36,917 nt of DNA from the IMG/VR virus record IMGVR_UViG_3300045988_102538; one strand, given 5' to 3'. The notes beneath the pieces are model-generated. The model made no database searches, had not been told where the DNA came from, and worked only from the letters and a program-made list of their open reading frames with translations. Below are positions 10,426 through 34,804 of the stretch, one piece after another. The position numbers and the translations under genes are program-made. The DNA is from a virus. Each line of letters starts with the position of its first letter. Position 1 is the stretch's first letter.

Positions 10426-10507
10426 GGTGGATTGCCGGAGCAGACGAACGGACCCGACTGTAAATCGGGCGCATTTTGCCACGCGGGTGCGAATCCCGCA
10501 TCCACCA
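10426..10507 (+). tRNA. tRNA-Tyr (anticodon GTA), class II with 13-nt variable arm; no encoded CCA
   Basis: Hand fold: acceptor GGTGGAT/ATCCACC, D stem CCG/CGG, anticodon arm CCCGA-CTGTAAA-TCGGG, variable arm CGCATTTTGCCAC, T arm GCGGG-TGCGAAT-CCCGC, discriminator A. Confidence 0.8.
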
Positions 10508-10623
10508 CTCAACCGGCCCTCCGGCCGGCGGCGACCATGCGCCGCATCGCGTGGGAGGACCATACGGCGCACCGTGGCGCGGTCGAACTCGAATCCACGG
10601 GAAACAGCAAGAAGGAGCACGAC

Positions 10624-27881: not shown

Positions 27882-29162
27882 CTAGACGGTCTTCAACTGT
27901 TCAGCGCGCAGCTCGCCAATCGCGTCCGCCACATCGTCCAATCGTTCCGGCCAGAGAGCCGTGTATGTGTTCAGCGTGATGCTGGGTGAGGAGTGGCCGA
28001 GCTGCATCTGTAGGGTCTTCACGTCCGCGCCTTGAGCAATTGCAAAGCTCGCATAGCTATGCCTCAAACTATGGATGGTCACGCCCTCGTCCTCCATGCC
28101 GGCCAGTCGGACGGCCTTTCGCCAGACACGCGTCCGCCACGTGTTCGTCCACAGGTTCCCGCCTCTTGCCGCGCGGAACAGCCAGTCGTCGTCGCCCATG
28201 CCCTCCATCTGCCGTTCGATGGACGGTATGAGGAATCTGGGTATGGCGATGCTGCGCGGTTTGCCGTTCTTCGGCGTGCCCAGCACAAGCCTGCCTTTGC
28301 CGTCGTCGGTCCAAGTGCGGCGGATGCGCGCCCTGCGTGAATCCACATCCACGTCGCCGCATTTGAGTGCCAGCGTCTCGCCAATGCGGGCACCGGTGTA
28401 TGCCTGCCAGCGGACGATCAGCCCGTCTACCGGCCGTCCTGCCCGTTCGGCCATGCCGGCCAGCAACTCCACCTCCTCGACGGTAAGGAACACCATGTCG
28501 TCATCGGATTGCGTGATGCGCGGCACGGTGACCTTTTCAATGGGGTTCTCGCCAATCCAGCCGTGCTCCAAAGCGAATTCCATGACACCGCCCATGACGA
28601 CCTTGACGATGTTGCGGATGCTGCGTGGACTCAATGGCTTCGATTCGCGATCGTCCTGCAGTTCGGCGGGATACCCGCCTTCGGTGAGCTGCGTGACCCA
28701 CTGTTGCAGTTCGTCGCGTTGGATTTCCCTCAGTGTGCGATCGCCCCACTTGGGGTTGATATAAACGCGCAATTCGCGGCGGTATCTGCCCAAAGTGCCC
28801 TGTTTGATATCCATCTTGCCGTCCGTCCATTCGGAGGCAACGTCCCGGAAGATGCGTAGTTCCTGCTGCGGGTCGCGGTATTTGCCGCGTCTGATGTCGT
28901 CCTCGATGGCCGCTGCGTATTCCTCAGCGTCACGGAGCTTGGCGAAGTTCCGTGATTTCTGGACGCGTTTGCCGTCTCGAAGCGTGTACCAGCGGCATCT
29001 CCACCGTGAGCCTTGGCCGTACAGCGCGGACCGCCATTTGTCGGGCACATTGGCTTTCATCGGATCCTTCGCATTGGCCAGCGACTGTTTCGCGGCCCTG
29101 CTGGGCGGGTTGCCGTCCTCGTCGTTTTTGAGCCATCTGTCGTCTACGAACGCTCTGGCCAT
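27882..29162 (-). CDS. int: Tyrosine integrase
   Basis: 426 aa from MARAFVDDRW. Contains YTGARIGE, HSLRHSYAS and LGHSSPSITLNTY. Adjacent to attP. Confidence 0.9.
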   Translation of the reverse strand: MARAFVDDRWLKNDEDGNPPSRAAKQSLANAKDPMKANVPDKWRSALYGQGSRWRCRWYTLRDGKRVQKSRNFAKLRDAEEYAAAIEDDIRRGKYRDPQQELRIFRDVASEWTDGKMDIKQGTLGRYRRELRVYINPKWGDRTLREIQRDELQQWVTQLTEGGYPAELQDDRESKPLSPRSIRNIVKVVMGGVMEFALEHGWIGENPIEKVTVPRITQSDDDMVFLTVEEVELLAGMAERAGRPVDGLIVRWQAYTGARIGETLALKCGDVDVDSRRARIRRTWTDDGKGRLVLGTPKNGKPRSIAIPRFLIPSIERQMEGMGDDDWLFRAARGGNLWTNTWRTRVWRKAVRLAGMEDEGVTIHSLRHSYASFAIAQGADVKTLQMQLGHSSPSITLNTYTALWPERLDDVADAIGELRAEQLKTV

Positions 29163-29318
29163 GGTCGTCTCTTTCCAAGGATCCGCGCTACACTGTGCGT
29201 GGAACCTCATTTTGGTGAAAACGGAAATGCTGATTGTTGGTTCCTTGGGTTCCGTCCGACTGTGTTCGGGCGGAACCCTTTTTGTTTCCCGTCGCGGTAT
29301 GTGGACGCTGAGCTTCTT

Positions 29319-29726
29319 TTATTGCACGCACACGCCGGAATCGTACAACAGCTGCCGGTAGTCCGACAGTACTTGGATGGTGACGCCCAATTCCACGGCC
29401 ATCATCCACGTATTGCCTTCGTATATCTGCTCCACCATGCCATAGTCCACGGGACTGATCAACGCCAGCGCGGTCTCCCTGCGACACCGGTGCTCGCACT
29501 TCAACCCGTATTGGCTGCCACAGCCTGGATCGTGGTGTTTCGCGTGGATGAGCTCATGGCACAGCGTGCAACGGCGCTGGCGCTGGTTGAGCCAGTCGGC
29601 CAGCAGAATGAGTTTGTGTCGATCGTCGTATAGGCCGCATATGTCACGGGGAAGGTCGCGTGACATGACTGACAGACCCATGGATTCCGCGTTCCGGTGA
29701 AGCTCCGCGATGGTCTTGTTATCCAC
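29319..29726 (-). CDS. ImmA/IrrE-family Zn metallopeptidase
   Basis: HELIH (HExxH) motif within a 135-aa protein in the lysogeny module. GTG start with a GAGAGGA RBS. Confidence 0.7.
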   Translation of the reverse strand: MDNKTIAELHRNAESMGLSVMSRDLPRDICGLYDDRHKLILLADWLNQRQRRCTLCHELIHAKHHDPGCGSQYGLKCEHRCRRETALALISPVDYGMVEQIYEGNTWMMAVELGVTIQVLSDYRQLLYDSGVCVQ

Positions 29727-29856
29727 ATTCCTCTCTTCCGAAAGTATTGTTTTTCGAGAAGTACTTTTTTGCTGTTTGTCAAGTTCTGCTTGACAGTTGG
29801 AGTGTCGTATGTGATGCTTGAATCAGCTCATCTACCGAGTTGTAGAAGGAGTCTCC

Positions 29857-29886
29857 AGGGTCGCTGCGGCGGCCCTTGCTTTTATT
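29857..29886 (+). terminator. Plus-strand intrinsic terminator-like hairpin overlapping the 3' end of the minus-strand cargo operon
   Basis: agggtcgc-tgcg-gcggccct followed by tgcttttatt. Confidence 0.4.
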
Positions 29887-30412
29887 GAACGCAATTCCCG
29901 TTCAAACTTGACTGATCATATTCTTTCAGAAGTTTGTTGAAGCTATGATCATGGTCGACGTAGTAGGCGGTGACCAACATGCAGTAGCCTCTGTCCTTAT
30001 GTGGTTCCAGCACGACTAGATACCGTTCTGATTCAATGAGGATATATAACCTATCGCGGCCATGCTTATGCTTCCTCCAGATTAATGGCGCATCACATAC
30101 CTCATAATGGCATTGCGGACAATCCTTTGCGTTGTCAATCGTCTTCCGTGGAAACCTGATCCGCTCACATCTACGCAGATCGACATTCCTCTCGCCGGTT
30201 GTGTAGTCTTCGACGCTGGTGATGTGGAAAAACCCAGCCCATTTTCCGTCGGTCTCCTCTTTCTGGCGGCGTACGGAAACTCTGAGGCCGTCGAATGATG
30301 GATGTGAATCTATGAAGTCATGTCTGAAGATTGCATAAATCCTATCCTCATATACGGCAAAGTCTTCTATCGGGGATTTGGTTACGAGCTCCGGTGTCCA
30401 ATGCGGTGTCAT
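29882..30412 (-). CDS. Hypothetical protein (176 aa), last gene of the repressor-linked cargo operon
   Basis: ATGA overlap with the upstream gene. AT-rich relative to the rest of the genome. No motif recognised. Confidence 0.6.
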   Translation of the reverse strand: MTPHWTPELVTKSPIEDFAVYEDRIYAIFRHDFIDSHPSFDGLRVSVRRQKEETDGKWAGFFHITSVEDYTTGERNVDLRRCERIRFPRKTIDNAKDCPQCHYEVCDAPLIWRKHKHGRDRLYILIESERYLVVLEPHKDRGYCMLVTAYYVDHDHSFNKLLKEYDQSSLNGNCVQ

Positions 30413-31113
30413 GCGTTCCGTCCTTCCCAGACGAAGATGTTGAACTTGCGCGTGCCCAAGGTCGTTGACTGGGTGAGTCGGAGCTTTGATCTCATGCGTA
30501 TGTAGTCGATGATTTCAGCTTTCGCGCCTGATGGTTGGGGGATGGTCGTCCGGTTCGCCCTGCATACGGCTCCGTTGATCACGTCGGTGATTTGCATCAT
30601 TTGCACTTCGTCTGAACGGATTGGTTGCACTTTCTTGATGCATTCGTGGTTGAAGTCGTAGTGGCTGTTTGCTAGCACTTCCTCCAGTTTCTCGGTACGT
30701 TGCGCGGAGTGCGTGTCCTTGATGTCCACGTACACGTTGTAGGTGTTCGTGGAATCGAACAGCCTGTTCAGCATAGTGAAATACATCTTGTAGTACCAAT
30801 CGTTGTGTGACTGGGACCATGCCTCATGATTCAGACGTGTCTTCTTGGCCACCAGAACACGGAACCTCATGTCGTCATCCAGGAAGAAGCAGTTCAGCAA
30901 ATCCTTGTACAGGTCGATTTTCGGCATGCTGGCCTTCGTCCACTTCACTTCCGTGCGTGCCTTGACACCGTAACGTGCCTTGATCTGGAGAATATTCTCT
31001 GTGATTTCCTGCCTTTTATCCTTGGGGATAATGAGGGCTCCAAGGACCATCACGTCGCTGTCGTCATGTTCCAGATGACAGCTTTCATCGCAATACAGGT
31101 TGTATTCAGTCAT
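30409..31113 (-). CDS. DUF3800-like protein
   Basis: The N-terminus MTEYNLYCDESCH resembles the xYxDESG start remembered for DUF3800. AAAGGAA RBS. Overlaps the upstream stop codon. Confidence 0.55.
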   Translation of the reverse strand: MTEYNLYCDESCHLEHDDSDVMVLGALIIPKDKRQEITENILQIKARYGVKARTEVKWTKASMPKIDLYKDLLNCFFLDDDMRFRVLVAKKTRLNHEAWSQSHNDWYYKMYFTMLNRLFDSTNTYNVYVDIKDTHSAQRTEKLEEVLANSHYDFNHECIKKVQPIRSDEVQMMQITDVINGAVCRANRTTIPQPSGAKAEIIDYIRMRSKLRLTQSTTLGTRKFNIFVWEGRNA

Positions 31114-31645
31114 TTGCGTTCCTTTCACTCATCCGTGGCTCCATGTCTGTGGCCTTCGGAGACGCGTCGTCGGCTCGTCTCTCTTCTAGCTGTTTCCTGA
31201 GTGGTGTCTTGAGCTTGGTGAAGCCGATTGACATCAGTGTGAACGGGATGGCGAAGGTGAGCATGACGGGGCCGAAGAAGCACATGAGGATGGTGAACGC
31301 GGTCAGCGCGTACATCACCCAAAGAAGGACGTTATACGCCTTGTACTGGATTTCGAGCTGCTTCAAAGTCTTTGGGCGGGGCTGATGTGGCGTGCTGCCT
31401 GCAGATGAGGGAGTATAACTCGCCTGTTGATTGCTCTCGACAGTTGACCTCCGCTGCGGAGCGGTGTTTCTTTTCGTCTTCGGATTGATGGTATATGAGA
31501 CGCCCTTTGCTACATGCACGGTCTTGCGTCCCCTCGAATTGACTGTGACCGGTCCCATCTTCACGGACGTGCTGACACCTCTTTTACCGATATTCACCCG
31601 GACGTTCTTGCCCAGGCTGATCCTGCGATTGACCCTGAAACCCAT
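31106..31645 (-). CDS. DUF4236-like protein with C-terminal transmembrane helices
   Basis: MGFRVNRRISLGKNVRVNIGKRGVSTSV is a DUF4236-type N-terminus. TM segment LLWVMYALTAFTILMCFFGPVMLTFAIPFTLMSIGF. GAGGGGA RBS. Confidence 0.6.
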   Translation of the reverse strand: MGFRVNRRISLGKNVRVNIGKRGVSTSVKMGPVTVNSRGRKTVHVAKGVSYTINPKTKRNTAPQRRSTVESNQQASYTPSSAGSTPHQPRPKTLKQLEIQYKAYNVLLWVMYALTAFTILMCFFGPVMLTFAIPFTLMSIGFTKLKTPLRKQLEERRADDASPKATDMEPRMSERNAND

Positions 31646-31656
31646 TGTCATTCCCC

Positions 31657-32058
31657 TCACTCGTCAGGCGTCTCGGCTTCGAGACGTGCGTTCGAATCCT
31701 TGTTTGCGGCCACGTCATAGTCCTCTGGATGCGCGGCGATACGGTCGATGAGATCATCGGTGATCTGAGACTCGCGTTCGCGGGCCTCGTAGGCTCGTGC
31801 GGCATCGCTGCCCAGGGCGCGGGTGTAGATGTCGAGGCTGGTGAGCCCGAATGTGAAGGCGATGTGCTCCACGTCGGACGTTGTGAGCGGCGCTTCATAT
31901 CGGAGCCTTACGTGCCAGTAGTTGTTTCTCATACCGCTCTTTTTGTAGAACTCGGCATTTGTTATTCCGCTTCGTTTAACGAGATCTCGACATATGTCGA
32001 TGATTCTCTTGCTGTCTTCGGTGACTTCATTTCTGGCAATGCTTCCCATGCCCAACAT
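31657..32058 (-). CDS. CI-like repressor (XRE-type HTH)
   Basis: Divergent from the Cro-like gene across an operator-bearing region. HTH-like ITNAEFYKKSGMRNNYWHVRL. The start codon is uncertain (32058, 32049 or a TTG at 32067). Confidence 0.65.
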   Translation of the reverse strand: MLGMGSIARNEVTEDSKRIIDICRDLVKRSGITNAEFYKKSGMRNNYWHVRLRYEAPLTTSDVEHIAFTFGLTSLDIYTRALGSDAARAYEARERESQITDDLIDRIAAHPEDYDVAANKDSNARLEAETPDE

Positions 32059-32060
32059 GG

Positions 32061-32126
32061 TACCCAATTGAGAAGGATTTGTAAAGAATACTCAATTGAG
32101 TAACAATAAACTTACTCAATTAAGTA
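32061..32126. promoter_or_regulatory. Genetic-switch operators: three copies of the palindrome (T)ACTCAATTGAGT(A)
   Basis: tacccaattgaga at 32061-32073, the perfect tactcaattgagta at 32089-32102, and tactcaattaagta at 32113-32126. Confidence 0.65.
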
Positions 32127-32176
32127 CGGTAAGAATTACCGCAAGGCAATGAACAAAGAAAGGAGCGGCAAGACAG

Positions 32177-32422
32177 ATGAGTGAGACGGAAACCATCGCA
32201 AGGAATCTCAGCGGCGAGCTCGCACGGCACCGCAAGACACAGGCCGCGCTCGCCAAGGAACTCGGCATGAGCGAGAAAACCGTCAGCGAACGACTGCGAG
32301 GCAAAGGAGCATTCGATACCGAGCAACTCGAAAAGACGGCGACGATGCTCGGCATGAGCCTCTACCAGCTCATGATCAAGCTCCTGCAACCAATCGACGG
32401 CATCAAACAGATCAAGCCGTGA
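32177..32422 (+). CDS. Cro-like XRE-family HTH regulator
   Basis: LARHRKTQAALAKELGMSEKTVSERLRGK. AGGAG RBS. Divergent from the repressor gene. Confidence 0.8.
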   Translation: MSETETIARNLSGELARHRKTQAALAKELGMSEKTVSERLRGKGAFDTEQLEKTATMLGMSLYQLMIKLLQPIDGIKQIKP

Positions 32423-32425
32423 GCC

Positions 32426-32467
32426 GCGCTCGCCGACGAATGAATCGAAAGGAGAATCCGAAATGAG
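32426..32467 (+). repeat. 42-nt gene-junction repeat, copy 1
   Basis: gcgctcgccgacgAatgaatcgaaaggagaatccgaaatgag differs by 1 nt from the copy at 33054-33095. Confidence 0.9.
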
Positions 32468-33071
32468 CATCAACATTCCGGCCGAGACGCCGGACGAATC
32501 CACGAACCCGATTTCCGTTGAGGAGTTCGAACGCCTGCACCCGGCGATGCTGGGCGCGATAAGGAAAGCCGTCCGCGAGGAACCAGCTCGAACGGTTATC
32601 GGAACAGTGGGCGACGACAGGAGGAGCCACCTGTCCAGCCTTGACCTGCGAGGCATCGGCATCGAGGTCAGACGGCAGTTGTCGGCCCGCGACATGACGA
32701 CCGAAGTCATGGGCTCGATTCTCGAGCACATCAATCAGGCCGCGGACCGACTAAGCACGGAGATACAGGAACTCCGTTCAGAACTTATCCGAGAGCACGT
32801 CGAGACAGTAGGCGGCGGATGCCATGGAGGCATCCATCGAATCGAATCCCTTGGCGAGGAGGGAAAGACCTTGGCACAGGGCTCTCATCCTCTCGTCGGG
32901 ATCGGACGTTTCGGCGGCCTTCCCAAACACGGCGCTCGCCTTCGCGAAATCGGATCCATTGCTCATATTCTCACCTCCCTTCTTTGCGTGGGTCTGCTCA
33001 TTCTCCCACTCGGTAGGAAGGCCCTCAAACGAAACACGTCGGGAAAGCAATCAGCGCTCGCCGACGCATGA
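32463..33071 (+). CDS. Hypothetical early protein (202 aa; 3' half is antisense to a better-looking minus-strand ORF)
   Basis: Strong RBS and a coding-like 5' half. The 3' half shows weaker third-position GC bias. Confidence 0.45.
   Translation: MSINIPAETPDESTNPISVEEFERLHPAMLGAIRKAVREEPARTVIGTVGDDRRSHLSSLDLRGIGIEVRRQLSARDMTTEVMGSILEHINQAADRLSTEIQELRSELIREHVETVGGGCHGGIHRIESLGEEGKTLAQGSHPLVGIGRFGGLPKHGARLREIGSIAHILTSLLCVGLLILPLGRKALKRNTSGKQSALADA
32778..32966 (-). CDS. Small helical protein (62 aa), reverse-oriented in the early region
   Basis: GGAGGTGA RBS 5 nt before the ATG. High GC3. Paralogue-like to 34892..35074. Confidence 0.5.
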   Translation of the reverse strand: MSNGSDFAKASAVFGKAAETSDPDERMRALCQGLSLLAKGFDSMDASMASAAYCLDVLSDKF

Positions 33072-33095: not shown

Positions 33096-33696
33096 GAAGA
33101 TGAAGAGATCCGATGTCCGCGAATGGATTCCAGGTGAACCGCTTGAACGGGTCGATTTCGGCAACGGTTGCACGGGGATGGATAAGAGCATTCCTAAGGA
33201 ACCCGGTCAGGTGGGCGATTTCAAGCGTCTCATTTGGAAATGCCGTGCCATTGAAGCGGACGGAGGGCCATGCCTTGATGTGCTTCCATCCGAATATTGG
33301 ATTGACGACGTGAAGCAGGGCGACTGCTTCGATGTGGTCACCGACGGATCAAGTTACGGCCCATGCAGCTTCGGTGGTGCGTGGACTTATCTCGCTGGCG
33401 TTGATACGGGATGGCATCTCGCCCGCAGGGAGCGTCATTCCGGTTTGTGTGCGACCTTGCGTGGCATATTCGATTCGTTGACTCATCGCCACGAGAACGC
33501 GACTGATGCAGAACAGTTGGTTACGGCCTCGAAGCCCTCTCGCGAATCTGCTGAACCCTCTTCGAGCTGCGGTTCCACGCCTCCTTCTTTATCTCGGTCA
33601 GAGATACACGAATCTTATGACTGCGCGACATGTGGGACGACCGCCACTCAATCTCGAAATCATCGGGAAGCAGCAGCACAGCATTCTCGCCGGTGA
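33091..33696 (+). CDS. Hypothetical early protein (201 aa)
   Basis: Starts at the repeat-borne RBS/ATG. Its 3' end overlaps a convergent ORF. Confidence 0.45.
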   Translation: MRKMKRSDVREWIPGEPLERVDFGNGCTGMDKSIPKEPGQVGDFKRLIWKCRAIEADGGPCLDVLPSEYWIDDVKQGDCFDVVTDGSSYGPCSFGGAWTYLAGVDTGWHLARRERHSGLCATLRGIFDSLTHRHENATDAEQLVTASKPSRESAEPSSSCGSTPPSLSRSEIHESYDCATCGTTATQSRNHREAAAQHSRR

Positions 33697-33997
33697 AACC
33701 GGTATGGCAGATCTGATTCGGCCTTAACCGCTTGGCCAACAGCGGCGTATAGGGGCTTGTTCCCAACGTTGCCTGAGGGGGGATTCGGACGTCATACATC
33801 GTCAGAGGCCCAACAAGCCGGAAATACACGATGCTGTTTGACGTGGAATCAAGAAAAGGCTCCAGATCGGTTTTGGACAAATCGTCCCTACGGCGAATGG
33901 AGTGGATTTGAAACTGCTGCAGAACGTTCCACGCCAAAGACGCCCCGGCGATGATGGTCGAAGCCCAGCCTGCCGGATCCTCAAGAAAACTACTCAC
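33521..33997 (-). CDS. Hypothetical protein (158 aa), reverse-oriented, hydrophobic N-terminus
   Basis: Third-position GC bias favours this frame over the overlapping + frames. GTG start with no clear RBS. Confidence 0.45.
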   Translation of the reverse strand: MSSFLEDPAGWASTIIAGASLAWNVLQQFQIHSIRRRDDLSKTDLEPFLDSTSNSIVYFRLVGPLTMYDVRIPPQATLGTSPYTPLLAKRLRPNQICHTGFTGENAVLLLPDDFEIEWRSSHMSRSHKIRVSLTEIKKEAWNRSSKRVQQIRERASRP

Positions 33998-34021
33998 AAA
34001 CTCGATTCTAAGGAGAATCTA

Positions 34022-34804
34022 ATGAACAATGAAATCCAGAAGTTCGATTTCAAGGGCGCCCCATTGCGTACCCTGACCGATAAGGCGGGGGAGCCCTGGT
34101 TCGTCGCCAAGGACGTATGCGCCATCCTCGAAATCAGCAATCCATCCGATGCATTGAAAAGGCTTGACGATGATGAACGGTCTAGGTTCAATCTAGGGCG
34201 TCAGGGCGAGACCAATATCGTCAACGAAGCCGGACTGTATGTTCTCGTGCTCGGTTCCCGCAAGCCCGAGGCTCACGAGTTCAAGCGGTGGGTGACGCAT
34301 GAGGTGCTGCCCCAGATCCGCAAAACCGGCGGCTACATCCCGACGTCCGAGTCGGATTCAGATGAGGACATCATGGCCAGGGCCGTGCTCGTCGCGCAGA
34401 AGACCATCGAGCGCAAGAACCAGCAGCTTCAAGCCAAGGACACACAGATCAAGATGTTGGAGCCGAAGGCCCGGTTCGCGGACGCCGTGGCCGCGTCAGA
34501 CGGCACGTGCCTGGTCGGCGAGCTCGCGAAGATGCTCCGGCAGAACGGGATGGACATCGGCCAGAACAGACTGTTCCGTCTTCTTCAGGCTGACGGGTAT
34601 CTCGGCAAGTCCGGTTCGAATCGCAACGTGCCGACACAGCGTGCGATGGACCTCGGCCTGTTCCGCATCAAGGAGACCACCGTCACCCATGCGGATGGGC
34701 ACACCACGGTCAGCCGCACTCCGAAGGTCACGGGCAAGGGGCAGCGCTATTTCATCGACCGGTACTGGGGTCGCACCCAGCCGTCGTTGGAAGCGGGGGC
34801 GTGA
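34022..34804 (+). CDS. Antirepressor (Bro-N + KilA-C/ANT-like)
   Basis: FDFKGAPLRTLTDKAGEPWFVAKDVCAILEISNPSDALKRLDDDE...EAGLYVLVLGSRKPEAHEFKRWVTHEVLPQIRKTG. AAGGAG RBS. Confidence 0.85.
   Translation: MNNEIQKFDFKGAPLRTLTDKAGEPWFVAKDVCAILEISNPSDALKRLDDDERSRFNLGRQGETNIVNEAGLYVLVLGSRKPEAHEFKRWVTHEVLPQIRKTGGYIPTSESDSDEDIMARAVLVAQKTIERKNQQLQAKDTQIKMLEPKARFADAVAASDGTCLVGELAKMLRQNGMDIGQNRLFRLLQADGYLGKSGSNRNVPTQRAMDLGLFRIKETTVTHADGHTTVSRTPKVTGKGQRYFIDRYWGRTQPSLEAGA

What the first reader, a model, noticed from the sequence alone, without database searches (positions are those of the whole stretch)
29882..32058. AT-rich three-gene cargo translationally coupled to the CI-like repressor: candidate prophage-encoded defence or exclusion module
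Four minus-strand genes are chained by start/stop overlaps. The order is CI-like repressor (GTGA overlap), DUF4236-like protein with C-terminal TM helices, DUF3800-like protein (8-nt overlap), then a 176-aa unknown protein (ATGA overlap). The three cargo genes are clearly more AT-rich than the rest of the genome. They sit in the int-to-cI slot and would be expressed with the repressor in the lysogen. In other temperate phages this slot holds exclusion or defence genes, such as lambda rexAB and the mycobacteriophage prophage-mediated defence loci. I do not recognise this gene trio as a named defence system.
Basis: partly seen in the sequence, partly recalled or inferred. Interest (0 to 1): 0.68.

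Follow-up and report, generated by a model that had tools for sequence, protein, structure and literature searches.

The report
Prophage RlfAB candidate defence gene pair
A Bifidobacterium prophage carries, just behind its repressor gene, a widespread but untested two-gene candidate anti-phage module (an RNase H-like nuclease plus a small partner, the same pair as rlfA/rlfB of phage P1), together with an unrelated membrane-protein gene, so the reported "three-gene system" is really two separate passengers.

Summary
The "trio" is two independent modules.

**Module 1** is 30409-31113 plus 29882-30412. It is a full-length match to PADLOC's unvalidated candidate system PDC-M04 (A: E 1.5e-86; B: E 3.9e-90). 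It is homologous to phage P1 rlfA/rlfB.
- RlfA is a DUF3800 protein with an RNase HII-like predicted fold and invariant acidic residues.
- RlfB is a 176-aa protein whose confident model matches no solved structure.
- In 77 of 80 loci from many phyla the two genes are adjacent in A-to-B order. The other three are a contig-end cut and two truncated remnants.
- In 43 of 80 loci the pair abuts type I restriction-modification genes.
- The pair is the lowest-GC stretch of the window (49.3% against 60.4%).

**Module 2** is 31106-31645, a DUF4236 protein with two transmembrane helices. It is found only in Bifidobacterium prophages and occurs with or without RlfAB.

In sibling prophages this slot holds other defence-type cargo.

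A defence role is well supported by context but has never been tested. This is a new member of a known candidate kind. Interest is moderate.

The parts
29882..30412 (-). rlfB-like gene (176 aa), PADLOC PDC-M04B. It is a small alpha/beta protein of unassigned fold. Invariant residues are H63, R81, W112 and T148; C82, E83, R84 and A149 are at least 90% conserved. A Cys-rich insertion (C98, C101, C106) is specific to the Bifidobacterium clade.
   Evidence: - PADLOC E 3.9e-90, full length.
- tblastn to P1 rlfB: 35.5% identity over 80%, E 4e-10.
- Conserved residues from alignment A1.
- AF2 model pLDDT 93.9.
- No significant PDB match: best E 0.13, with weak partial RelE/HigB hits.
- 1987 cluster representatives, essentially all stand-alone proteins of about 150-190 aa.
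30409..31113 (-). rlfA-like gene (234 aa), PADLOC PDC-M04A. It is a DUF3800 protein with an RNase HII/H2-like fold. D9, E10 and the Q174-x-x-D177 motif are invariant; D130 is at least 90% conserved.
   Evidence: - Pfam DUF3800 E 3.7e-15.
- PADLOC E 1.5e-86.
- Conservation in 37 sequences; residue positions.
- AF2 pLDDT 85.7.
- Foldseek top hits are RNase HII 1eke (E 2.4e-6) and human RNase H2A.
- A 100%-identical protein occurs in another prophage.
31106..31645 (-). Independent accessory gene. It has an N-terminal DUF4236 domain, a Ser/Thr/Pro/Gln-rich linker and two C-terminal transmembrane helices (179 aa; pI 10.9).
   Evidence: - Pfam DUF4236 E 1.1e-08.
- Hydropathy; pI.
- No PADLOC hit.
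- 26 relatives, the full-length ones at least 76% identical; the contexts examined are Bifidobacterium-type prophage lysogeny modules.
- Occurs after repressors without RlfAB and once with it.
31657..32049 (-). Immunity repressor (130 aa from ATG 32049; in-frame alternatives at 32058 and 32067). The N-terminal part is HTH-like. The C-terminal ~45 aa are shared with other repressors of this phage group.
   Evidence: - 95% identical to the Bbif-1 counterpart.
- Aligns with an HTH_3 repressor, with a near-identical C-terminus.
- Weak PHROG 'transcriptional repressor' hit, E 0.055.
- No Pfam hit.
- A promoter-like site at 32085-32057 would give a leaderless start (inference).
32061..32126 (.). Three operator-like copies of a 14-nt palindrome (TACTCAATTGAGTA), between the repressor gene and the cro-like gene.
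   Evidence: the repeat finder family D1 and palindrome I4.
32177..32422 (+). Cro-like HTH_3 protein (81 aa), divergent from the repressor.
   Evidence: Pfam HTH_3 E 2.6e-06. 95% identical to the Bbif-1 counterpart.
29857..29876 (.). GC-rich hairpin just after the rlfB stop codon. It is the likely 3' edge of the cassette or a terminator.
   Evidence: - Terminator-like scan.
- Conservation with Bbif-1 resumes immediately downstream of it.
29319..29726 (-). ImmA/IrrE-type M78 metalloprotease (135 aa, HELIH motif). It is the probable anti-repressor protease partner of the repressor.
   Evidence: - Pfam Peptidase_M78 E 9.6e-07.
- PHROG 87 metallo-protease, E 8.4e-17.
- Present in every related Bifidobacterium context examined.
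27882..29210 (-). Tyrosine integrase (442 aa).
   Evidence: Pfam Phage_integrase E 4.2e-24.

Best explanation
The region is the lysogeny operon of a Bbif-1-like Bifidobacterium prophage. On the minus strand it reads repressor, cargo, ImmA-like protease, integrase. Two unrelated passenger modules were inserted between the repressor and the protease.

**Module 1: the RlfA/RlfB pair (PADLOC PDC-M04).**
- RlfA is a DUF3800 nuclease with an RNase H2-like fold and an intact set of acidic residues.
- RlfB is a faster-evolving small protein of unassigned fold.
- The two are translationally coupled and inherited as a unit.
- Most likely they form a nucleic-acid-targeting anti-phage (or anti-mobile-element) system that the prophage expresses with its repressor to protect the lysogen from superinfection.
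- In the inferred mechanism, RlfB acts as the sensor or regulatory subunit and RlfA as the nuclease effector. RlfA would cut invader RNA:DNA hybrids or structured nucleic acid.

**Module 2: a DUF4236 two-transmembrane protein.** This is a separate accessory gene specific to Bifidobacterium prophages. It may be a membrane-level exclusion factor, but that is speculation.

**Shown:**
- gene identities
- predicted folds
- strict A-B linkage
- association with R-M systems and prophage hotspots
- low GC
- independence of the DUF4236 gene

**Inferred:**
- co-transcription with the repressor
- complex formation
- division of roles between RlfA and RlfB
- the defence phenotype itself
For: **Identity.**
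- PADLOC PDC-M04A and PDC-M04B are full-length hits.
- P1 RlfA and RlfB hit the same models, at 1e-95 and 1.3e-51.
- tblastn to P1 rlfB.

**Linkage.**
- A lies directly upstream of B in 77 of 80 loci. The exceptions are one contig-end cut and two truncated B remnants.
- B starts overlap A ends in nearly all loci (crude longest-ORF starts).
- The A and B identity matrices correlate (r = 0.89).
- A is more conserved than B in 97% of pairs.

**Fold.**
- RlfA matches RNase HII/H2 and its acidic residues are conserved.
- The literature agrees that DUF3800 is RNase H-like. It is recruited by type VII retrons and by Cas12a2/a3 loci (PMC7736814, PMC10910872, PMC13594972).

**Defence context.**
- 43 of 80 loci have type I R-M genes on the same strand, in most cases directly abutting the pair.
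- Of 75 nearest upstream genes, 17 are type I S subunits and 13 are type I REases. Of the downstream neighbours scanned, 9 are type I REases. PbeA, MzaA, RmrA, PDC-S02, Mrr and TIR genes also appear.

**Prophage hotspot.**
- The same slot in ctl617 holds PDC-S05, which was reported active against T7 and T5 (10.1101/2024.09.26.614923).
- More distant Bifidobacterium-clade RlfAB copies sit beside HSDR_N, GmrSD_N, SocA_Panacea and PIN genes.

**Cassette behaviour.**
- Against Bbif-1, the flanks are 88-95% identical but RlfA is 55% and RlfB 36% identical.
- GC z = -4.15.

**P1.**
- rlfAB is non-essential (PMC10695390).
- It lies in a variable, low-GC region of P1-like phage-plasmids (PMC9603915).
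Against: - No experiment on PDC-M04 or rlfAB as a defence system was found. Other PADLOC candidates have failed when tested (PMC12409345).
- In P1 the pair lies next to the lytic replicon and is induced during lytic growth (10.64898/2025.12.28.696737). That is the opposite expression logic to a lysogen-expressed exclusion gene.
- No transcript data exist for this prophage.
- RlfB has no recognisable sensor or binding domain, so the split into sensor and effector rests only on relative evolutionary rates.
- Nuclease activity is inferred from conserved residues, not from a superposed active site.
Confidence: 0.6

Rival explanations
1. RlfAB is a toxin-antitoxin or addiction pair that stabilises mobile elements. 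RlfB would be a RelE-like RNA-targeting toxin. The upstream RlfA would be an enzymatic antidote. Any phage effect would be a by-product (abortive infection).
For: - The gene order and ATGA coupling resemble type II TA operons.
- Foldseek repeatedly lists RelE, HigB and ParE-type toxins for the C-terminal sheet of RlfB (4fxh_B probability 0.84).
- A strain-specific DUF3800 gene scored as essential in Legionella Tn-seq alongside antitoxins (10.1101/2020.10.01.323287).
- The pair lives on the P1 plasmid-prophage.
Against: - The structural matches are non-significant (E >= 0.13, 41-77 aligned columns).
- RlfA is a 234-aa enzyme with conserved catalytic-type residues, not a small DNA-binding antitoxin.
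- RlfA is more conserved than RlfB in 97% of pairs. This is the reverse of the usual toxin/antitoxin pattern (general knowledge).
- P1 already carries phd-doc for addiction.
- It is not known whether the Legionella gene has an RlfB partner.
Confidence: 0.15
2. RlfAB is a replication-linked function, as annotated in P1. An RNase H-like enzyme and its partner would process primers or R-loops for the element's own replication.
For: - In P1 the pair lies directly downstream of repL/oriL, with a C1 operator upstream.
- It is induced with repL during lytic growth (10.64898/2025.12.28.696737).
- RlfA has an RNase H2-like fold.
- PHROG 16230 carries the label 'replication protein'.
Against: - The P1 label rests on position only: 'possibly associated with lytic replication' (PMC10695390).
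- CRISPRi knock-down in P1 has no effect on plating (PMC10695390).
- In this prophage and its relatives the pair is in the lysogeny module, not the replication module.
- In 43 of 80 chromosomal loci it abuts type I R-M genes and no replicon is apparent.
Confidence: 0.1
3. One reading: DUF4236-TM, DUF3800 and the 176-aa protein form one three-component defence or exclusion system.
For: - The three genes are chained with overlaps here.
- The same trio occurs in one other prophage that has a different repressor (L088).
Against: - The pair occurs without DUF4236 in Bbif-1, in five contexts of a 93%-identical RlfB, in P1, and in 77 other loci. No DUF4236 match was found there even at E <= 10.
- DUF4236 occurs without the pair in 14 displayed Bifidobacterium prophage contexts.
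- DUF4236 has no PADLOC hit.
Confidence: 0.05

Closest known systems
PADLOC-DB candidate system PDC-M04 (A + B)
   Same: Both proteins match the A and B models over their full length. They are adjacent and co-oriented in A-to-B order.
   Different: Nothing in the architecture differs. The novelty is the host and setting: a Bifidobacterium prophage lysogeny operon. The clade also has a Cys-rich insertion in RlfB. PDC-M04 is an unpublished, unvalidated candidate (PMC11811056).
Bacteriophage P1 rlfA/rlfB (P7 rapA/rapB)
   Same: - Homologous pair. RlfA is 234 aa in both.
- The genes abut in the same order.
- The region is low-GC and variable (PMC9603915).
   Different: - In P1 the pair follows the lytic replicon repL and is induced in lytic growth. 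Here it follows the repressor in the lysogeny operon.
- RlfB is 154 aa in P1 and 176 aa here.
- RlfB identity is only about 35%.
Type VII retrons and TPR-DUF3800 proteins of Cas12a2/a3 loci
   Same: They use a DUF3800 RNase H-like domain as an accessory or effector in a defence context (PMC7736814, PMC10910872, PMC13594972).
   Different: - There is no reverse transcriptase, CRISPR array, TPR domain or known DUF3800-associated RNA motif here.
- The partner is the RlfB protein.
- This RlfA keeps the Q of the QxxD motif, which the retron-linked proteins lack.
Lambda rexAB and mycobacteriophage prophage-mediated defence loci
   Same: The positional logic is the same: accessory genes lie behind the repressor gene, are presumably co-transcribed in the lysogen, and occupy a variable cargo slot.
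   Different: There is no sequence or fold relationship. RexB is a membrane channel and RexA a sensor, whereas RlfA is a predicted soluble nuclease. Co-transcription here is inferred, not shown.
PrrC/EcoprrI arrangement (a defence gene embedded in a type I R-M operon)
   Same: In many distant loci the pair sits hsdM-hsdS-[rlfA-rlfB]-hsdR or hsdR-[rlfA-rlfB] on one strand.
   Different: - There is no homology to PrrC.
- No R-M genes flank the pair in this window.
- A guard relationship with R-M is only an idea.
ImmR/ImmA-type switch (ICEBs1, phi105)
   Same: An HTH repressor, an M78 metalloprotease and an integrase lie on one strand, divergent from the early genes.
   Different: Cargo genes separate the repressor from the protease. 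Cleavage of the repressor by the protease is untested.

Membership tests
PADLOC PDC-M04 | A protein matching the PDC-M04A models | tested here: met
   PDLC04353, E 1.5e-86, profile positions 1-229 of 232.
PADLOC PDC-M04 | A protein matching the PDC-M04B models | tested here: met
   PDLC04356, E 3.9e-90, profile positions 1-176 of 176.
PADLOC PDC-M04 | The two genes are adjacent and co-oriented | tested here: met
   ATGA overlap at 30409-30412. The same order is found in 77 of 80 loci.
PADLOC PDC-M04 | Demonstrated anti-phage activity | not testable with these tools
   No paper mentions PDC-M04. PDC systems are described as unpublished candidates (PMC11811056).
P1 RlfA/RlfB | Sequence homology of both proteins to P1 RlfA and RlfB | tested here: met
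   tblastn to rlfB gives E 4e-10. P1 RlfA and RlfB hit the same PADLOC models.
P1 RlfA/RlfB | Location beside the lytic replicon (the basis of the name 'replication-linked function') | tested here: not met
   Here the pair lies between the repressor and ImmA/integrase. In P1 it is downstream of repL.
DUF3800 / RNase H-like nucleases | Pfam PF12686 match above the gathering score | tested here: met
   57.4 bits against a cutoff of 21.
DUF3800 / RNase H-like nucleases | N-terminal DE motif and C-terminal QxxD motif | tested here: met
   D9-E10 and Q174-I-T-D177 are invariant in 37 sequences.
DUF3800 / RNase H-like nucleases | RNase H-like three-dimensional fold | tested here: met
   Foldseek gives RNase HII 1eke at E 2.4e-6, probability 1.0, TM about 0.5. 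Twelve hits have E <= 0.001 and all are RNase HII/H2 entries.
DUF3800 / RNase H-like nucleases | Nuclease activity | not testable with these tools
   Inferred only from conserved acidic residues.
RelE/ParE-superfamily toxin (for RlfB) | Significant sequence or structural similarity to RelE, HigB or ParE | tested here: inconclusive
   - No Pfam hit.
- Profile search against PDB sequences finds nothing relevant.
- Foldseek gives only partial, non-significant matches, E >= 0.13.
Type VII retron | Reverse transcriptase and msr/msd ncRNA next to the DUF3800 gene | tested here: not met
   The neighbours are the repressor, DUF4236, RlfB and ImmA. There are no Rfam hits.
DUF3800-associated RNA motifs (Weinberg 2017) | A DUF3800-I to -XI, drum or skipping-rope RNA near the gene | tested here: not met
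   Nothing was found in the window at the gathering threshold or at E <= 5. Nothing was found in 13 RlfAB loci.
ImmR/ImmA regulatory module | HTH repressor plus M78 metalloprotease co-oriented with the integrase | tested here: met
   - M78: Pfam E 9.6e-07 and PHROG 87.
- The repressor aligns with an HTH_3 repressor.
- Operator repeats.
   The trio is seen in L088 only. The pair occurs without DUF4236. DUF4236 occurs without the pair.

The most novel reading that the evidence does not exclude
RlfAB could be a genuine anti-phage system with a mechanism not yet described. An RNase H2-like nuclease would be gated by a partner whose fold matches no solved structure. Mobile elements would carry it, and type I R-M operons would embed it, possibly as a back-up that fires when restriction is disarmed (PrrC-like logic). 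If so, the twenty-year-old 'replication-linked' label on P1 rlfAB, and the PHROG 'replication protein' annotation derived from it, would be wrong.
Probability: 0.4. Interest if true: 0.65.

Novelty: new member of a known kind. Interest (0 to 1): 0.42.

Why it matters
- **A testable link.** The analysis ties three things together: an unvalidated PADLOC candidate (PDC-M04), the long-unexplained rlfA/rlfB genes of the model phage P1, and common prophages of infant-gut Bifidobacterium. The candidate can therefore be tested directly in E. coli P1 lysogens.
- **Family size and context.** The RlfB family has about 2000 clusters at 50% identity, and half of the sampled loci sit in type I R-M operons.
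- **If defence is confirmed.** It would add a DUF3800/RNase H-like effector system with a new partner protein. It would also correct a propagated 'replication protein' annotation.
- **For Bifidobacterium biology.** The repressor-to-ImmA slot emerges as a hotspot for exchangeable defence cargo.
- **If defence is not confirmed.** The locus is an ordinary pair of prophage accessory modules.

Tried and rejected
- **Known RNA motifs near the DUF3800 gene.** I ran Rfam on the whole window at the gathering threshold, on 29100-32600 at E <= 5, and on 13 RlfAB loci. Only tRNAs were found.
- **Fold assignment for RlfB.** Foldseek against PDB gave no significant hit. BFVD returned only a homologue. A profile search against PDB sequences gave nothing relevant. 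Pfam and NCBIfam gave nothing. I keep the RelE-like resemblance only as a lead.
- **Sequence search of RlfA against PDB.** No hit.
- **DUF4236 relatives in the 80 distant loci.** None by tblastn or phmmer, even at E <= 10.
- **DUF4236 in the phage collection.** Only three weak N-domain matches.
- **Literature.** There is no paper on PDC-M04 and nothing functional on DUF4236. Nothing useful came up on Bbif-1 transcription: the search returned two papers and I opened neither. The P1 genome paper (PMC523184) and one 2026 preprint could not be opened.
- **First genome scan.** It failed because the 55-sequence alignment had no conserved block. I repeated it with 14 sequences.
- **Anti-defence reading.** I considered that the pair is an anti-restriction module and rejected it. 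It is embedded in chromosomal R-M operons on the same strand rather than opposing them.
- **The B-to-immA spacer as an ncRNA.** It folds with z = -2.6 and is highly conserved. However, it carries promoter-like and operator-like elements for immA, so I did not pursue it.
Full report
**1. What is in the sequence**

The minus strand from 32067 down to 27882 carries six genes:
- a 130-136-aa protein (31657-32049/32067)
- a DUF4236 protein (31106-31645)
- a DUF3800 protein (30409-31113)
- a 176-aa protein (29882-30412)
- a 135-aa M78 metalloprotease (29319-29726)
- a tyrosine integrase (27882-29210)

An HTH_3 Cro-like gene (32177-32422) runs the other way.

Overlaps:
- The GTGA overlap at the repressor stop codon exists in the sequence. 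However, the DUF4236 domain starts at residue 8 of that ORF. Relatives are called from the ATG 15 nt further on, giving 179 aa, and that ATG follows GAGGGG. An 11-nt spacer is therefore more likely than an overlap.

Base composition:
- The DUF3800 + 176-aa stretch is 49.3% GC, against 60.4 +/- 2.7% elsewhere (z = -4.15). It is the lowest-GC stretch in the window.
- DUF4236 is only mildly low, at 54.4%.

Other features:
- Three copies of the palindrome TACTCAATTGAGTA lie between the divergent genes.
- A GC-rich hairpin follows the 176-aa gene.

**2. Source**

The window is a Bifidobacterium prophage related to Bbif-1.

**3. Identity of the pair**

- PADLOC-DB matches the DUF3800 protein to PDC-M04A (E 1.5e-86) and the 176-aa protein to PDC-M04B (E 3.9e-90). 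Both matches are full length. DUF4236 and the repressor match nothing in PADLOC.
- A tblastn search of the phage collection shows that the 176-aa protein is homologous to RlfB of phage P1 and RapB of P7 (E about 4e-10). It is also present in 99 P1-like plasmids.
- P1 RlfA (234 aa, DUF3800) and RlfB hit the same PADLOC models, at 1e-95 and 1.3e-51. PDC-M04 is therefore the RlfAB family.
- The P1 genes are named by position only: 'possibly associated with lytic replication'. They are dispensable by CRISPRi (PMC10695390). They lie in a variable, low-GC region of P1-like phage-plasmids (PMC9603915).
- The PHROG label 'replication protein' for the RlfB family and the Bbif-1 label 'RlfA phagic protein' probably derive from that naming (my inference).
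- PDC systems are unpublished candidates (PMC11811056). No held paper mentions PDC-M04.

**4. A pair, not a trio**

The pair without DUF4236:
- In Bbif-1 the flanks are nearly the same: repressor 95%, Cro 95%, ImmA 88%, and the spacer upstream of immA about 95% identical.
- The cargo there is a diverged RlfA (55%) plus an unannotated RlfB (36%), with no DUF4236.
- Conservation resumes right after the hairpin that follows rlfB. This points to a swappable cassette.
- Five contexts of a 93%-identical RlfB read repressor (four different proteins), RlfA, RlfB, ImmA, integrase. None has DUF4236.

The trio:
- One other prophage (L088) has the trio behind yet another repressor.

DUF4236 without the pair:
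- The DUF4236 protein has only 26 relatives. The full-length ones are close, at least 76% identical.
- In 14 displayed contexts it sits next to a repressor or ImmA without RlfAB.

Distant loci:
- A scan of one genome per species found 309 RlfB relatives.
- In the best 80, RlfA lies directly upstream on the same strand in 77.
- The three exceptions are a contig-end cut and two N-terminally truncated RlfB remnants.
- None of the 80 has a DUF4236 match.

Co-evolution across 79 pairs:
- The identity matrices of A and B correlate (r = 0.89).
- A is the more conserved partner in 97% of comparisons (mean 60% against 48%).
- B starts overlap A ends in nearly all loci (crude longest-ORF starts).

Family size:
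- An exhaustive profile search finds 1987 RlfB cluster representatives. Essentially all are stand-alone proteins of about 150-190 aa.

**5. Genomic context**

Nearest upstream genes (75 loci):
- By Pfam, 16 are HsdS, about 13 are HsdR and 6 are HsdM.
- By PADLOC, 17 are type I specificity subunits and 13 are type I REases.

Nearest downstream genes:
- These include 8-9 HsdR.
- Also present are Mrr, TIR, PbeA, MzaA, RmrA, PDC-S02 and PLD-helicase genes.

By seeded phmmer:
- 43 of 80 loci carry type I R-M genes on the same strand, in most cases directly abutting the pair.
- The arrangements are hsdM-hsdS-[A-B](-hsdR) or hsdR-[A-B].
- Other neighbours are type III Res, a 1594-aa Eco57I-like enzyme and an SMC-type ATPase.

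In Bifidobacterium-clade prophages:
- The pair is always in the lysogeny module, with an HTH repressor, an M78 protease and an integrase.
- It sits beside HSDR_N-domain, GmrSD_N, SocA_Panacea, PIN or bPH_1 genes.
- The equivalent slot of phage ctl617 holds PDC-S05. That candidate is reported to reduce T7 and T5 plating about 1000-fold (10.1101/2024.09.26.614923).

This is classic defence-island and prophage-hotspot context.

**6. The proteins**

RlfA:
- The AF2 model has pLDDT 85.7.
- Its best structural matches are archaeal RNase HII and human RNase H2A (E 2.4e-6 to 5e-4, probability 1.0).
- D9, E10, D153, E169, Q171, Q174 and D177 are invariant in 37 sequences. D130 and D133 are at least 90% conserved.
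- These correspond to the family's DE and QxxD motifs.
- This agrees with published views of DUF3800 as an RNase H-like domain. It is found in type VII retrons and next to Cas12a2/a3 (PMC7736814, PMC10910872, PMC13594972).

RlfB:
- The model is very confident, at pLDDT 93.9.
- It has no significant PDB match. RelE, HigB and ParE toxins recur only as short, non-significant alignments to its C-terminal four-stranded sheet.
- BFVD returns only a homologue.
- H63, R81, W112 and T148 are invariant. C82, E83, R84 and A149 are at least 90% conserved.
- The Bifidobacterium clade has a Cys-rich insertion.

RNA motifs:
- Other DUF3800 genes are associated with eleven RNA motifs (PMC5737381).
- None is detectable here or in 13 RlfAB loci. 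In this subfamily the partner is a protein.

**7. Regulatory frame**

- The repressor has no Pfam hit. It aligns with an HTH_3 repressor from a sibling prophage.
- It shares a near-identical C-terminal ~45 aa with that repressor.
- Together with the M78 protease and the operator repeats, this looks like an ImmR/ImmA-type switch with cargo inserted between the two partners.
- Only 11-20 nt separate the repressor stop codon from the first cargo gene, here and in relatives. Co-transcription from the lysogenic promoter is therefore the simplest reading. It is an inference.

**8. Mechanism and rivals**

Best-supported view (confidence about 0.6 for a defence role, lower for the details):
- RlfAB is a two-protein, nucleic-acid-targeting immune module.
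- RlfA is the nuclease.
- The faster-evolving RlfB is the sensor or regulator.
- The module is expressed in the lysogen to block superinfecting phages.

Rivals:
- A TA or addiction pair with RlfB as toxin (0.15). Leads are the weak RelE-like matches and an 'essential' strain-specific DUF3800 gene in Legionella (10.1101/2020.10.01.323287).
- A replication-linked function, as labelled in P1 (0.10).

The main points against a defence role are the lack of any experiment and the fact that P1 induces rlfAB during lytic growth (10.64898/2025.12.28.696737).

**9. Verdict**

- The locus is a new member, in a new host and setting, of a catalogued but unvalidated candidate system, plus an unrelated membrane-protein gene.
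- Interest is moderate.
- The useful outputs are the PDC-M04 = P1 rlfAB equivalence, the strict A-B linkage, the embedding in type I R-M operons, and the identification of the repressor-to-ImmA slot as a cargo hotspot.

Noticed in passing
window 29319-29726 (-) and 31657-31790 (-): An ImmA/IrrE-type M78 protease gene lies downstream of the cargo. The last ~45 aa of the repressor are nearly identical to those of a sibling repressor whose N-terminal HTH part is divergent. This conserved tail could be the part the protease recognises or cleaves.
   Followed up: partly
window 29727-29856; inverted repeat GTCAAG-N5-CTTGAC at 29778-29794: The spacer between rlfB and immA is about 95% conserved even in Bbif-1, where the cargo proteins are only 36-55% identical. 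It contains an inverted repeat overlapping a TTGACA hexamer, and it folds with z = -2.6. It is probably the immA/int promoter-operator region.
   Followed up: partly
L001 3592-4083 (GQ141189.1 35653-36144): The Bbif-1 GenBank record has no CDS for its rlfB homologue, which matches PDC-M04B at E 4.3e-86. It labels the DUF3800 gene 'RlfA phagic protein'.
   Followed up: yes
L002 3279-4283 (OY725605.1): The sibling phage ctl617 carries a PDC-S05 (RhuM-like) gene overlapping immA, in the slot that RlfAB occupies here, plus an unassigned 161-aa gene.
   Followed up: partly
L090-L097 5071-6159; L104-L107 2104-3198 and 5544-6779; L098-L103 4564-5406: Other Bifidobacterium prophages place different cargo next to the repressor/ImmA pair: a ~362-aa HSDR_N-domain protein, a GmrSD_N protein, SocA_Panacea, and a 280-aa protein with a weak HIRAN hit.
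   Followed up: partly
window 10426-10508 (+): A tRNA-Tyr (GTA anticodon) gene lies inside the phage region.
   Followed up: no
window 33521-33997 (-): A 158-aa ORF lies antisense to the early rightward genes and overlaps the annotated start of the Bro-N/ANT antirepressor ORF (33902-34804). It has no Pfam or PADLOC hit. It could be another accessory gene or a spurious ORF.
   Followed up: partly
window 29247-29278: A strong 13-bp hairpin followed by a T-run on the plus strand lies between immA and int. On the minus strand, which is the coding strand, it lacks a U-tract.
   Followed up: no
PHROG 16230 / NC_005856.1 rlfB: The 'replication protein' label on the RlfB family appears to rest only on the gene's position next to repL in P1. 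It is likely to mislead automated phage annotation.
   Followed up: partly
L014 2044-2526; L038 2043-2480: Two loci carry N-terminally truncated rlfB remnants without rlfA, behind unrelated genes. This is consistent with decay once the pair is broken.
   Followed up: partly
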